Assembly (NCBI RefSeq): GCF_024298765.1
Contig: NZ_CP101210.1
Reading direction: 5' to 3' (one strand)
Length of the DNA stretch: 64,000 nt
Source of the DNA: Escherichia coli
GTDB lineage: Bacteria; Pseudomonadota; Gammaproteobacteria; Enterobacterales; Enterobacteriaceae
Shown: positions 36,001 to 39,000 of the stretch, one piece after another
How positions within the stretch are numbered: the stretch's first letter is position 1
How the letters are laid out: every line of letters begins with the position of its first letter
Program-made: the position numbers

Positions 36001-39000
36001 TTCATTGCTGAAAAAACTGCTCCCGGCCATGAACCTCTGCCAGCTCCCCGGACGTGCGGGCGCACTGCTTACGACGCTTCTTCACCATATATCGACAATC
36101 AACAGGTTTGACAATCTGATGACTCAGCCGTTGTTGTCAGATGGGCCCCTGACAGTGCTGATGGATCATTATCTTGATACTGATGATCTGGCTGACGGGC
36201 TACCGTTGTATGTGTCGCTGTACCCCACGGAAGGGGGAATGCAGGATATTATCGACTGCATTCGTGCTGAACTGGGTACCGGAACTACAAAAAACTCCGT
36301 TTTTCAGCATATCCAGAGCCTGCCCCACGGGCAGCAGAAAGAAGCCTTACTGGCGTCAGCAGCACTGCCCCTGCTGTTCCGTCCCCGTGAGGTACAGGGA
36401 AAAATGTACGGTGATGGTGGTATGGGCGGATGGCAAAATATGCAGGGGAATACCCCTGTGACGCCACTGGTGGATGCCGGATGCAATATGGTGATTGTGT
36501 CGCATCTGAGTGACGGTTCTTTATGGGATCGCCGGGCTTTTCCGGACACCACAATCCTTGAAATCCGTCCCCGGAAAAAGCTGAAACAAACAGGGGAAGA
36601 AGGCAAAAGTGGCGGTCTGCTCAGTTTTACATCGGCACATATCGACACCTGGCGTCAGCAGGGCTATGAAGACACGATGCTGGCGATGGAGCATATCCGG
36701 AAACCACTGGAGGCGCGTCAGGCACTGACCCGGTCAGAGGCGGTGTTGCAGAAAAGTCTGGAGAAAACGGAAGAGGCAGATTTGGCACTGAGAAACGCGA
36801 TGGCCCGGATTAAATAAAGACGCCCCAAAGAAACGCCACCGCCTGTGGTGGTGTTTTTCCTGGCTGGTGTTATTGAAAATATTTTCAGATATATATTACC
36901 CGGACGATGGTTAAGATTGATTTATTTAATTTTGGGGAGAAAATTATGAGACTGTCAAATATTTTCCTGGCTGTAGTTTTAACTGTGACCGTATCTGTAG
37001 CACACGCTATTCCAAATATGTGGGGCAGTGGCTTCACGATGGGCGTTACTGAGTTCAGTATTGATAACGGTAAGTGGGGTATCAATATCAGTTGCACAGG
37101 TAACCCCAACGAAAACAATGTGCTGGCGCACACAATCTATATTTACAAAGGAGATAAGGTGGTCGCAAACTCGGAAGAAAAAAATATTAGTTTCGTTATT
37201 GACGGTGAAGAATTCTGGGGTGTGGTTCCTGACGGTACCCGTATGAACGATAACGCCTGGGTTAGCTTTGTAAAAGCAATAAGCACTGCAACCGGGTTTG
37301 AACTGTACATAAACGAGAAGAAAGTTGCGACGTTTAACCCGTCTGCCAAAAACGTTAAGAAAGTGATGGATAATAACTTTATCCAGTCGTGCTGGAATAC
37401 CTGGTACGAATAACGATTACAGGAGAGGGGGACTTCCTGGCCCCCGATTTATTTAAGGAGTGCATGAAATGAAACATTTTTTAATTCTGGTTATCGGTTT
37501 ACTCATTTCCATCACCGCGACTGCCGAATCGCTGGGTCAGTTTGAAGAGGATATCACCGGTTTTCCGCAGGGAGTATGGTTTTACAAAGAAAAAGCAGGC
37601 TGGAAAAACGAAACCGGGTATAAAAAAGAATATTTAAACAGTCTCCTCTATAAGGCCGAAGAAATTGCGAATTATCCGGGTAACAGATACACGATTTACC
37701 GTAGTAAAAACAGCAGCATAATTTTCGTCGCTGACAACGAAACCAGGACTTTCTACTTGCTAAACAACAAGGACGCCTTATGGTCTGATATTCAGATCGG
37801 GTATTGGGCTGAGAACAAAAACTCGTGTCACTACGTCTTTGTCGATACTCAATACCTTGCGCAAAGTAACGAACTTGACGAGTTCTTTCGAACCGGGGTG
37901 CTCGATACTCATGGTGTTGGTGAATCGGATCGTAAAGTAAAAGAGATCAGACAAAAACATAAGACTCATGTCTTACTCCGCCTGCCTGCGCAATGTGTGA
38001 ATGATGCGATCCTCAGCAGAATGAATAAGTCCGAACGTCGTGATCTAATGAAAGCGCAAGAAGATTTCAAACAATATCTTGCCAGAATGGAGCTGTAAGT
38101 ATTCAACCTTTTCGCAACTGTGAGTGAAATGAAAATCAAAACTATACTTTATACTATCATTCTTTTCTGTGAAATTGGCATCACCGACACTTATGCACTC
38201 GGTGGTTCGGATATCCGTCACTGCGAACCAACTGAAGAATCTGTAATTATTAACCCGGACGAGTCACCGGTGTTAATATATAGCTTCAGTAAACACGAAG
38301 TGTATAAACTGATGCAGGGGGATACCTGCACTGGGCTAGTTATTAGCGATAAAAAGCCAAAGCCTGTCCACGTTTAATGGACATCGCTTGCGAACCGCCA
38401 GAAGTCATGTCTGCCAGCATTCATCTACTGGCCGCGGATAATTATACGACCATGGATTTCTGCCATAACGCCGAATTAATCGGTCGTATTCCGTAAGCCG
38501 TGGTATCGAATAATTTAAGAAGGATTTTTATCATGAAACACCGACACATTTTAACGTTCTTTGTTGCTTTCCTGTTCATGACTATCGTACCTGATAGCGA
38601 CGCCGCATTAGTAAAGCGTCCTGAGAAAGGTCGTGCACCGTTCCCGGAATATGTGGAGTTCGCGCAAAACCGTAACCAGTTCCCATGTAATGCACGTTTA
38701 CGCTTTAAAGGTCTCTGCTTTGTTGAACAAACTGACCCCTGGGGTGCAGCAAGCGTTGTCCGAATCCCTTTCAATTCCCCCAATGGTAAAGGCAGACTTA
38801 ACGCTTATGGCGTGGTTGTTCATGCAATAATGGTTGGTGATGTTGTCGTTGGTGGCAGCTATTCAACTGGCAAGAATGTTACCTGGAATTTCGATACGTT
38901 TTATAGGGAGGGTAAACGTCGCGGTAAGGTGACCTTTTATGTTGATGGTAAATACTGGCACTATCGCGACTATCCACTCGAATAATCCATAACGAACAAA

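What the first reader, a model, noticed from the sequence alone, without database searches (positions are those of the whole stretch)
36946..38985. Cluster of four co-directional small exported proteins immediately downstream of the dynamin/patatin operon
Four consecutive genes of 82-209 aa each start with a signal peptide. Three have good ribosome-binding sites. All are on the same strand as the upstream operon and separated from it only by the terminator hairpin. This does not match the canonical CP4 module content. They could be periplasmic immunity or partner proteins for the phospholipase, or an unrelated secreted-protein cassette.
Basis: partly seen in the sequence, partly recalled or inferred. 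Interest (0 to 1): 0.5.

Follow-up and report, generated by a model that had tools for sequence, protein, structure and literature searches.

The report
Mosaic secreted-protein cargo of CP4-type island
The four small genes are real, but they are swappable cargo of an E. coli genomic island, related to small secreted-protein genes of giant phages, and not helpers of the neighbouring dynamin/phospholipase operon; one is broken by a single-base deletion and their function is still unknown.

Summary
The four ORFs lie at the stated coordinates and each starts with a Sec-type signal peptide. The link to the dynamin–RdcB–patatin operon does not hold. The operon is in 2442 of 5426 complete E. coli genomes; this cassette is in 202, all ≥99% identical. 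Elsewhere the same slot is empty (O157:H7) or holds two different secreted-protein genes (1879 genomes).

- **ORF1** is a YfjT/YkfB-family protein (Pfam PF27224), which is standard CP4-6/CP4-57 content.
- **ORF2** belongs to a small unnamed family. In other Enterobacterales it sits in CP4-like modules behind a YfjR/WYL regulator, with no dynamin or patatin gene.
- **ORF3** (82 aa) is the 5' fragment of a 122-aa gene, frameshifted at an A5 run in all 202 genomes. Its family (phrog_9424) lives in SPN3US-like and ~225-kb jumbo phages.
- **ORF4** has no homologue anywhere. Its leader matches the phage gene that follows the ORF3 homologue.

The slot is therefore a gene-by-gene mosaic of a jumbo-phage-like array of small exported proteins. 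Function is unknown. My best guess, at low confidence, is envelope-level exclusion of incoming phages or mobile elements. Interest is modest.

The parts
36837..36853 (+). Intrinsic terminator of the dynamin-RdcB-patatin operon (7-bp stem, then TTTTT). It lies in the flank shared by all slot variants.
   Evidence: the shared flank extends to 36900 (ST131-type) or 36937 (O157).
36938..39214 (+). Variable cargo slot of the island. It is absent from the O157:H7 version and replaced by altA/altB between 36901 and 39282 in the ST131-type version. GC is about 43%, against 51-56% in the flanks.
36946..37413 (+). ORF1, 155 aa, YfjT/YkfB family (Pfam PF27224, phrog_3429). It has a signal peptide (cleavage after AHA21) and two family-invariant cysteines (C50, C149).
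   Evidence: AF2 model pLDDT 81.5.
37469..38098 (+). ORF2, 209 aa, a signal-peptide protein of a small unnamed family. The fold is a beta-meander plus helices, with no convincing structural relative. The gene is absent from the related array in L024.
   Evidence: homologue contexts.
38129..38496 (+). ORF3, a frameshifted copy of a 122-aa phrog_9424-family gene. Frame 0 runs 38129-38377 (82 aa); the -1 frame continues from 38356 to the stop at 38494-38496.
38351..38355 (+). The A5 run where one A is missing relative to the intact A6 allele. The context is GAT AAA AAG.
38533..38985 (+). ORF4, 150 aa, an E. coli-restricted orphan. The upstream region and the first ~46 nt (leader) match the phage/ST131-type 'altA' gene; the mature part has no relative.
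   Evidence: absent from the related array in L019.
39017..39039 (+). A 23-nt remnant (21/23 identical) of the 5' end of the fifth phage-array gene (gp083-like, MRLICALL...). It is also present after altB in the ST131-type slot.
   Evidence: local score 19 against a shuffle maximum of 12.
39045..39080 (+). Terminator-like hairpin (CTCCTGCCA-TTA-TGGCTGGGG, one mismatch) followed by CTTTTTATTTT. It was read by eye and not reported by the scan.
   Evidence: Sequence; not found.
39103..39336 (+). DUF905 gene (YkfF homologue, 46% identity). Its 5' half lies inside the variable slot. It is followed by DUF932, antirestriction, RadC/JAB, DUF987 and CbeA/CbtA genes.

Best explanation
The four ORFs are the variable 'small exported protein' array of a CP4-type integrative island. 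They belong to the island's backbone (DUF905, DUF932, antirestriction, RadC, DUF987, CbeA/CbtA), not to the dynamin-RdcB-patatin operon upstream.

The array is a gene-by-gene mosaic of an array of five consecutive signal-peptide genes found in ~225-245-kb Enterobacteriaceae jumbo phages:
- ORF1 is a YfjT/YkfB-family gene.
- ORF2 is an extra gene from a family that elsewhere follows the YfjR/WYL regulator of CP4-like modules.
- ORF3 is the phage-type second gene, inactivated by loss of one A.
- ORF4 carries the leader of the phage-type third gene fused to an orphan mature domain.
- A 23-nt stub of the fifth gene follows.

Shown: family membership, mosaic structure, distribution, and independence from the operon.

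Inferred: ORF1, ORF2 and ORF4 are exported by Sec, cleaved by signal peptidase I (none has a lipobox), and fold as soluble periplasmic or released proteins. ORF1 and ORF2 each have a family-conserved cysteine pair and ORF4 has two cysteines, consistent with one disulfide each.

Speculative (about 0.3): they act at the envelope for the mobile element, most plausibly hindering entry of competing phages or elements. The only basis is that the same families are carried by lytic jumbo phages, plasmids and islands.
For: Distribution:
- The cassette is in 202 of 5426 genomes, all >=99% identical.
- The operon is in 2442 genomes at 3404 places.
- The operon-cassette junction is present in 201 genomes.
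- Alternative slot fillings: empty in O157; altA/altB in 1879 genomes.

ORF1:
- 35% identical to K-12 YfjT and YkfB, with the same 155-aa length.
- PF27224 on its cluster.
- PGAP names it 'YfjT/YkfB family'.
- A Klebsiella plasmid has the same order: YfjT-like ... DUF905, DUF932, antirestriction.

ORF2:
- Homologues at 24-48% identity.
- They follow a WYL/DeoR regulator, some with a 4-nt overlap, and precede YfjS_YafY, IrmA or YfjT genes and then antirestriction, RadC and CbtA. None has a dynamin or patatin gene nearby.

ORF3:
- tblastn hits only jumbo phages and a 222-kb E. ludwigii replicon.
- Eight IMG/VR loci, seven of them on contigs of 150-246 kb.

Phage array, from L027: YfjT-like, ORF3-like, altA-like, altB-like, gp083-like, each with a leader.

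Mosaic breakpoints:
- L024 lacks ORF2 and L019 lacks ORF4.
- The ORF4 leader is homologous to the phage altA leader.
- The gp083 stub follows ORF4.

Conserved cysteine pairs and leaders are seen in alignments A1-A3.

Precedent for a secreted occupant of this slot: IrmA (PMC4807369; PF18673 gene in the slot).
Against: - There are no expression data.
- No consensus sigma-70 promoter lies between the terminator and ORF1, so the cluster might depend on read-through from the operon.
- In E. coli this exact cassette is always next to the operon (201 of 202 genomes). A lineage-specific functional link therefore cannot be formally excluded, although the >=99% identity makes this a single evolutionary event.
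- ORF3 is broken and ORF4 is a chimeric orphan, which fits decay as well as function.
- Signal peptides were judged by rule, not by SignalP.
Confidence: 0.75

Rival explanations
1. Non-functional or decaying cargo: the cluster is a recombination scar of a phage-derived array that is carried passively and is probably silent.
For: - ORF3 is frameshifted in all 202 complete genomes.
- ORF4 is a leader/orphan chimera with no homologue among 5.8 billion proteins, or in phages, plasmids or IMG/VR.
- A 23-nt stub of a further gene follows.
- IS insertions occur in several copies.
- No promoter was predicted.
- GC is low, about 43%.
- A diverged copy (L019) shows frameshifts in all three genes.
Against: - ORF1, ORF2 and ORF4 are intact and annotated in nearly all 202 genomes. 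With >=99% identity, though, this says little about selection.
- The ORF1, ORF2 and ORF3 families keep their leaders and cysteine pairs at 24-76% identity across islands, plasmids and phages, so the families themselves are under selection.
- The L019 frameshifts may be assembly errors.
Confidence: 0.2
2. Host-directed secreted factors like IrmA: small proteins released by ExPEC or commensal B2 strains that bind host molecules.
For: - IrmA, a secreted FNIII-like cytokine-receptor mimic, occupies the equivalent position in sibling islands (PMC4807369; PF18673 gene in the slot).
- The cassette is found in CFT073, ABU 83972, Nissle 1917, ATCC 25922 and APEC strains.
Against: - None of the four hits PF18673.
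- The ORF1 and ORF2 models are not FNIII-like.
- Family members occur in lytic jumbo phages of Salmonella, Erwinia and Proteus, in environmental plasmids and in K-12. That argues for a bacterial-envelope role rather than a host-directed one.
Confidence: 0.12
3. One reading: periplasmic immunity or partner proteins of the patatin-like phospholipase/dynamin system.
For: The genes are on the same strand and immediately downstream. In E. coli this cassette is always found next to the operon. No separate promoter was predicted.
Against: - More than 90% of operon copies lack the cassette. Some have an empty slot, so the operon is maintained without it.
- An intrinsic terminator intervenes.
- Homologues live without the operon.
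- The patatin protein has no export signal.
- The adjacency reflects one island lineage at >=99% identity.
Confidence: 0.04
4. ORF3 is expressed at full length by programmed -1 ribosomal frameshifting at T AAA AAG rather than being a pseudogene.
For: - AAA AAG is the shifty lysine pair of the dnaX-type heptamer (own knowledge).
- A -1 slip there yields exactly the 122-aa protein found as the A6 allele.
- The frameshifted allele is fixed in 202 genomes.
- A 6-bp hairpin starts 9 nt downstream.
Against: - The heptamer lacks the first A.
- There is no upstream SD-like stimulator.
- The downstream fold is no better than shuffles (z = -0.52).
- Intact homologues have no such site at this position.
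- A one-base loss in a homopolymer is the simpler explanation.
Confidence: 0.05

Closest known systems
YfjT (CP4-57) / YkfB (CP4-6) of E. coli K-12, Pfam PF27224
   Same: ORF1 is 35% identical over the full length and has the same 155-aa size. It shares the signal peptide, the two invariant cysteines, and the position upstream of a DUF905 gene in a CP4-type module.
   Different: In K-12 the gene follows the lipoprotein YfjS/YafY and lies after DUF932/YfjR. Here it follows a patatin gene and precedes three other secreted-protein genes. The family has no known function; ykfB is FliA-driven in K-12, and its deletion did not affect motility (PMC4183435).
IrmA (PF18673), agn43-yeeR-irmA islands of UPEC
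   Same: It is a small signal-peptide protein in the equivalent cargo position of sibling CP4-type islands, just upstream of the DUF932/antirestriction backbone, and is released from the cell (PMC4807369).
   Different: No sequence or fold similarity to any of the four ORFs. IrmA has a characterised FNIII-like structure and binds cytokines.
Small signal-peptide gene array of SPN3US-like and ~225-kb Enterobacteriaceae jumbo phages (SPN3US ACQ60_gp086-gp083; phrog_9424, phrog_8968)
   Same: - ORF3 is 39-65% identical to the phrog_9424 gene.
- A YfjT-like gene precedes it in the ~225-kb phages.
- The ORF4 leader matches the next phage gene.
- A stub of the fifth gene follows ORF4.
- The alternative E. 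coli slot (altA/altB) matches phage genes 3 and 4.
   Different: The phage genes are intact and contiguous. The island copy is rearranged: ORF2 is inserted, ORF3 frameshifted, the ORF4 mature domain replaced and altB missing. The function of the phage genes is also unknown.
YfjS/YafY inner-membrane lipoproteins (PF20494)
   Same: They occupy the same slot, are small envelope proteins, and neighbour ORF2-family genes in other elements.
   Different: None of the four ORFs has a lipobox, and there is no sequence similarity.
Phage/prophage superinfection-exclusion envelope proteins (e.g. T4 Imm/Sp, Cor, Llp), cited from my own knowledge as a functional analogy only
   Same: Small exported proteins encoded by mobile elements and phages.
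   Different: No homology was detected and no phenotype tested. This is a hypothesis, not a membership claim.

Membership tests
YfjT/YkfB family (PF27224), for ORF1 | Full-length sequence similarity to K-12 YfjT/YkfB, or a profile hit | tested here: met
   - 34.5% and 35.4% identity, E 2e-29 and 2e-27.
- PF27224 precomputed on its cluster.
- phrog_3429 at E 2.6e-12.
- The local Pfam copy lacks the model, so there was no hit.
YfjT/YkfB family (PF27224), for ORF1 | N-terminal signal peptide and two conserved cysteines | tested here: met
   Alignment A3: C50 and C149 are invariant in 7 sequences at 23-76% identity, and all have leaders.
YfjT/YkfB family (PF27224), for ORF1 | Location in a CP4-type module near DUF905, DUF932 and antirestriction genes | tested here: met
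phrog_9424 jumbo-phage family, for ORF3 | Profile match over the whole protein | tested here: met
   Repaired 122-aa sequence: E 1.5e-29, profile positions 1-122 of 128. 39-64% identity to phage and plasmid members.
phrog_9424 jumbo-phage family, for ORF3 | Intact reading frame of ~122-144 aa that includes both conserved cysteines (C67, C88) | tested here: not met
   The frame is broken at codon 77, and the 82-aa product lacks C88. This holds in all 202 genomes.
   201-202 of 2442 operon-bearing genomes have the cassette. O157 has an empty slot and 1879 genomes have a different insert.
   Homologues occur in K-12 CP4-6/CP4-57, plasmids, metagenomic islands and jumbo phages, all without the operon.
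   This needs genetics. The patatin protein lacks a signal peptide, which makes a periplasmic immunity partner unlikely.
IrmA (PF18673) | Pfam profile hit / FNIII-like fold | tested here: not met
Bacterial lipoproteins (YfjS/YafY-like) | Lipobox [LVI][ASTVI][GAS]C at the end of the leader | tested here: not met
   Read from the sequences. The only leader cysteine (ORF3, ILFC) has F at -1.
Known anti-phage defence proteins (PADLOC-DB) | Profile hit | tested here: not met
   No hit for ORF1-4. The neighbouring gene at 30475-31578 hits HEC-08 at 1e-173.
Sec-exported, SPase-I-cleaved periplasmic proteins | n/h/c-region leader with an AXA-type site; experimental export | tested here: inconclusive
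   The rule-based screen is positive for all four, and leaders are conserved in the families. SignalP and export assays were not available.

The most novel reading that the evidence does not exclude
The YfjT, ORF2, phrog_9424, altA, altB and gp083 families form a mobile pool of small disulfide-bonded periplasmic proteins. Lytic jumbo phages, plasmids and CP4-type islands exchange them gene by gene, sometimes by swapping mature domains behind a shared leader. They would constitute a previously unrecognised class of envelope-level exclusion or anti-exclusion factors.
Probability: 0.2. Interest if true: 0.6.

Novelty: new member of a known kind. Interest (0 to 1): 0.3.

Why it matters
The result removes a tempting but wrong link between the cluster and the dynamin/patatin operon. 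It corrects the annotation of a locus present in widely used strains (CFT073, Nissle 1917, ATCC 25922, ABU 83972): one unannotated frameshifted gene, and one leader/orphan chimera.

It also shows that the 'hypothetical' small secreted proteins of CP4-type islands, including the K-12 y-genes yfjT and ykfB, share ancestry with an array in jumbo phages. That gives a concrete, testable lead: phage or mobile-element exclusion assays for a group of y-ome proteins that currently have no function.

Tried and rejected
- Pfam, NCBIfam and PADLOC scans of the four proteins gave nothing meaningful.
- PDB sequence searches with profiles A1-A3 and with ORF4 gave only chance-level hits.
- Word-indexed homologue searches for ORF2 and ORF4 returned only their own clusters.
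- ORF4 has no relative in phages or plasmids, and none in IMG/VR. The apparent 87-88% variants are just frameshifted copies.
  - Both are too weak to assign function.
- BFVD: only marginal hits to small Erwinia jumbo-phage proteins, TM <0.4.
- The afdb50 library was unavailable.
- FliA-promoter idea: ykfB and yjcZ are FliA-driven in K-12 (PMC4183435), but no GCCGATAA-type site lies upstream of ORF1.
- Programmed frameshifting at the A-run: the downstream fold is not better than shuffles.
- Literature searches found nothing on this cluster or on the island's dynamin/patatin operon.
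Full report
**Where the window comes from.** The region is 100% identical to E. coli CFT073 262013-264313 and to about 200 other complete genomes, including ABU 83972, Nissle 1917 and ATCC 25922. It lies in a CP4-type island. The gene order is:
- integrase fragment
- HEC-08 defence candidate
- GTPase remnant
- dynamin-like gene (798 aa), YjcZ/RdcB-like gene and patatin-like gene
- the four ORFs
- DUF905, DUF932, antirestriction, RadC/JAB, DUF987 and CbeA/CbtA

**Observation.** The four ORFs are at the stated coordinates.
- Each starts with a basic n-region, a 9-14-residue hydrophobic core and a small-residue cleavage motif. 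None has a lipobox.
- A crude rule applied to all ATG-ORFs of >=80 aa in the window passes 8 of 95, and three of those are cassette genes. ORF1 also passes from its 36946 start.
- Shine-Dalgarno motifs are good for ORF1, ORF2 and ORF4 and weak for ORF3 (sequence).
- A 7-bp-stem terminator at 36837-36853 follows the patatin stop codon.
- PGAP annotates ORF1, ORF2 and ORF4 but not ORF3.

**ORF3 is a broken gene.**
- A tblastn search with the concatenated proteins found ORF3 relatives only in SPN3US-like and Erwinia jumbo phages and in a 222-kb Enterobacter ludwigii replicon. There they are 128-144 aa long.
- In the window, the missing C-terminal part (LMDIACEPPEV...AELIGRIP) is encoded in the -1 frame directly after an A5 run at 38351-38355.
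- The predicted repaired 122-aa protein exists exactly in the public collection. It sits on two short assemblies that differ from the window only by A6 instead of A5.
- A 68-nt A6 probe matched all 202 complete genomes at 98.5% and none at 100%, so the frameshift is fixed in sequenced isolates.
- The repaired protein matches phrog_9424 at E 1.5e-29.
- The family's conserved cysteine pair (C67, C88) straddles the break, so the 82-aa product is probably inactive.
- With the full gene (38129-38496), the odd 155-bp gap before ORF4 shrinks to 36 bp.
- A -1 ribosomal slip at T AAA AAG would produce the same protein, but nothing else supports programmed frameshifting.

**What the other three are.**
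- *ORF2* has no relative in the word-indexed search. The exhaustive HMMER search found a small family at 24-48% identity. Its model (pLDDT 76.8) has no convincing structural neighbour.
- *ORF4* has no homologue in any search.

**Relation to the operon.**
- The operon is present at >=80% coverage in 2442 of 5426 genomes, at 3404 places.
- The cassette is present in 202 genomes, always at >=99% identity. It is joined to the operon in 201.
- Homology between island variants stops at 36900 or 36937 and resumes at 39215 or 39282.
- In O157:H7 only about 27 bp lie between the two flanks.
- In ST131 and many other strains the slot holds two different signal-peptide genes, altA and altB. These are found in 1879 genomes.
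- The operon is therefore maintained without the cassette. The constant adjacency in 201 genomes reflects one island lineage.
- The patatin protein has no export signal.

**Where relatives live.**
- K-12 CP4-57 (yfjR, ypjK, yfjS, yfjT) and CP4-6 (yafY, ykfB, ykfF) carry YfjT-family genes without any dynamin or patatin gene.
- A Klebsiella IncFIB/HI1B plasmid has this order: WYL regulator, small genes, YfjT-like, DUF4234, DUF905, DUF932, antirestriction, RadC, then CbtA.
- ORF2 homologues directly follow a WYL/DeoR (YfjR-like) regulator, in some cases with a 4-nt overlap. They precede YfjS_YafY, IrmA or YfjT genes and the antirestriction/RadC/CbtA backbone.
- IrmA is a characterised secreted protein of sibling agn43-yeeR-irmA islands (PMC4807369). 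It is thus another occupant of this slot.

**Jumbo-phage connection and mosaicism.**
- In ~225-kb IMG/VR phage genomes (62-65% identical to ORF3), five consecutive genes all encode leader-bearing small proteins: YfjT-like (153 aa), ORF3-like (128-130 aa), altA-like (160 aa), altB-like (136 aa) and gp083-like (129 aa).
- SPN3US and Asesino carry the ORF3-, altB- and gp083-like genes in the same order.
- Related arrays show gene-by-gene gain and loss. L024 has a YfjT-type gene followed directly by an intact ORF3 homologue, with no ORF2. L019 has ORF1, ORF2, ORF3 and then DUF905, with no ORF4.
- The end of ORF3, the intergenic spacer and the first ~46 nt of ORF4 align with the phage ORF3-altA junction. 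The sequences then diverge, and 14 of the first 29 residues are identical.
- A 23-nt stub of the gp083-like gene follows ORF4, and also follows altB in the ST131-type slot.
- Both E. coli slot variants therefore look like different derivatives of one phage-like array.

**Mechanism.**
- *Shown:* identity, structure, distribution, and independence from the operon.
- *Inferred:* Sec export, SPase-I cleavage, and a soluble periplasmic or released location. One disulfide each is likely, from the family-conserved cysteine pairs in ORF1 and ORF2 and two cysteines in mature ORF4.
- *Speculative:* the same families are kept by lytic jumbo phages, plasmids and integrative islands, so a role at the bacterial envelope that benefits a mobile element is the most economical guess. 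Hindering entry of competitors is one example. I put this at about 0.3. Alternatives are silent decaying cargo (about 0.2) and IrmA-like host-directed factors (about 0.12). The immunity/partner idea is at about 0.04.
- No promoter was predicted upstream of ORF1, so expression is an open question. A terminator-like hairpin with one mismatch follows the array at about 39045-39080, read by eye.

**Verdict.** This is an ordinary accessory cassette of a CP4-type island and is not part of the dynamin/patatin system. It contains one known family (YfjT/YkfB), one small unnamed family, one fixed pseudogene of a jumbo-phage family and one chimeric orphan. The phage-island sharing of small exported proteins is a modestly interesting lead. 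The finding as stated rates low to moderate.

Noticed in passing
window 30475-31578 (+): A 367-aa protein matches the PADLOC model HEC-08 (E 1e-173) and DUF3644. This is a candidate anti-phage defence gene just upstream of the GTPase remnant and the dynamin operon.
   Followed up: no
window 2796-7628 (-), with 7827-12554 (-): A 1610-aa ORF contains three 1005-bp tandem repeats (97-100% identical). It is followed by ORFs of 420, 715 and 415 aa, the last with a signal peptide. This looks like a type I secretion-style repeat adhesin locus; that is my guess from gene sizes. The ORF layout here does not match the CFT073 annotation.
   Followed up: partly
window 32452-34848 (+) versus L001 7652-10049: The dynamin-like gene is an intact 798-aa ORF in the window, but PGAP marks it 'frameshifted' in CFT073. 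The window is therefore from a different strain, or the CFT073 reference carries a lesion.
   Followed up: no
window 31737-32234 (+): A truncated YeeP/YfjP-type GTPase ORF, annotated as a frameshifted hypothetical in CFT073. It is the usual first gene of the CP4-type backbone, here decayed.
   Followed up: no
L002 11502-12185 (altA; ST131-type slot, 1879 genomes): The annotated 227-aa protein contains two leader-like segments. The jumbo-phage homologue (160 aa) starts at the second one (M66, MKRLHTLM...). The E. coli annotation is therefore probably too long, or fuses a leader remnant to the real gene.
   Followed up: partly
L008 (NZ_CP134650.1, E. ludwigii 222-kb 'plasmid') and L026-L030: The 'non-mobilizable plasmid' shares gene order with SPN3US for five genes and matches ~225-kb IMG/VR viral genomes. 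It is probably a jumbo phage or phage-plasmid rather than an ordinary plasmid.
   Followed up: partly
K-12 ykfB and yjcZ (literature, PMC4183435); window 34845-35750 and 36946-37413: In K-12, intragenic FliA promoters drive ykfB (a paralogue of ORF1) and yjcZ (a paralogue of the RdcB-like gene here). No FliA -10 consensus lies upstream of ORF1 in the window. This may be a coincidence.
   Followed up: partly
window 37455-37478 and 38115-38138: The start regions of ORF2 and ORF3 share GTG..TGAAATGAAA. In L024 the deletion or insertion of ORF2 maps to exactly these points (37473 and 38120). This suggests short-homology recombination at gene starts.
   Followed up: no
window 28512-29249 (-): An ETEC_3214-family protein (NF043066, E 2e-53) with an N-terminal membrane anchor lies next to a truncated site-specific integrase gene (29477-30085).
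   Followed up: no
window 39017-39097 (+): A 26-codon ORF (MRLICALLKSIVNSLLPLWLGLFIFR) starts with the remnant of the gp083-like gene and has an AAGGA RBS. It is probably a vestige, but it could encode a small hydrophobic peptide.
   Followed up: no
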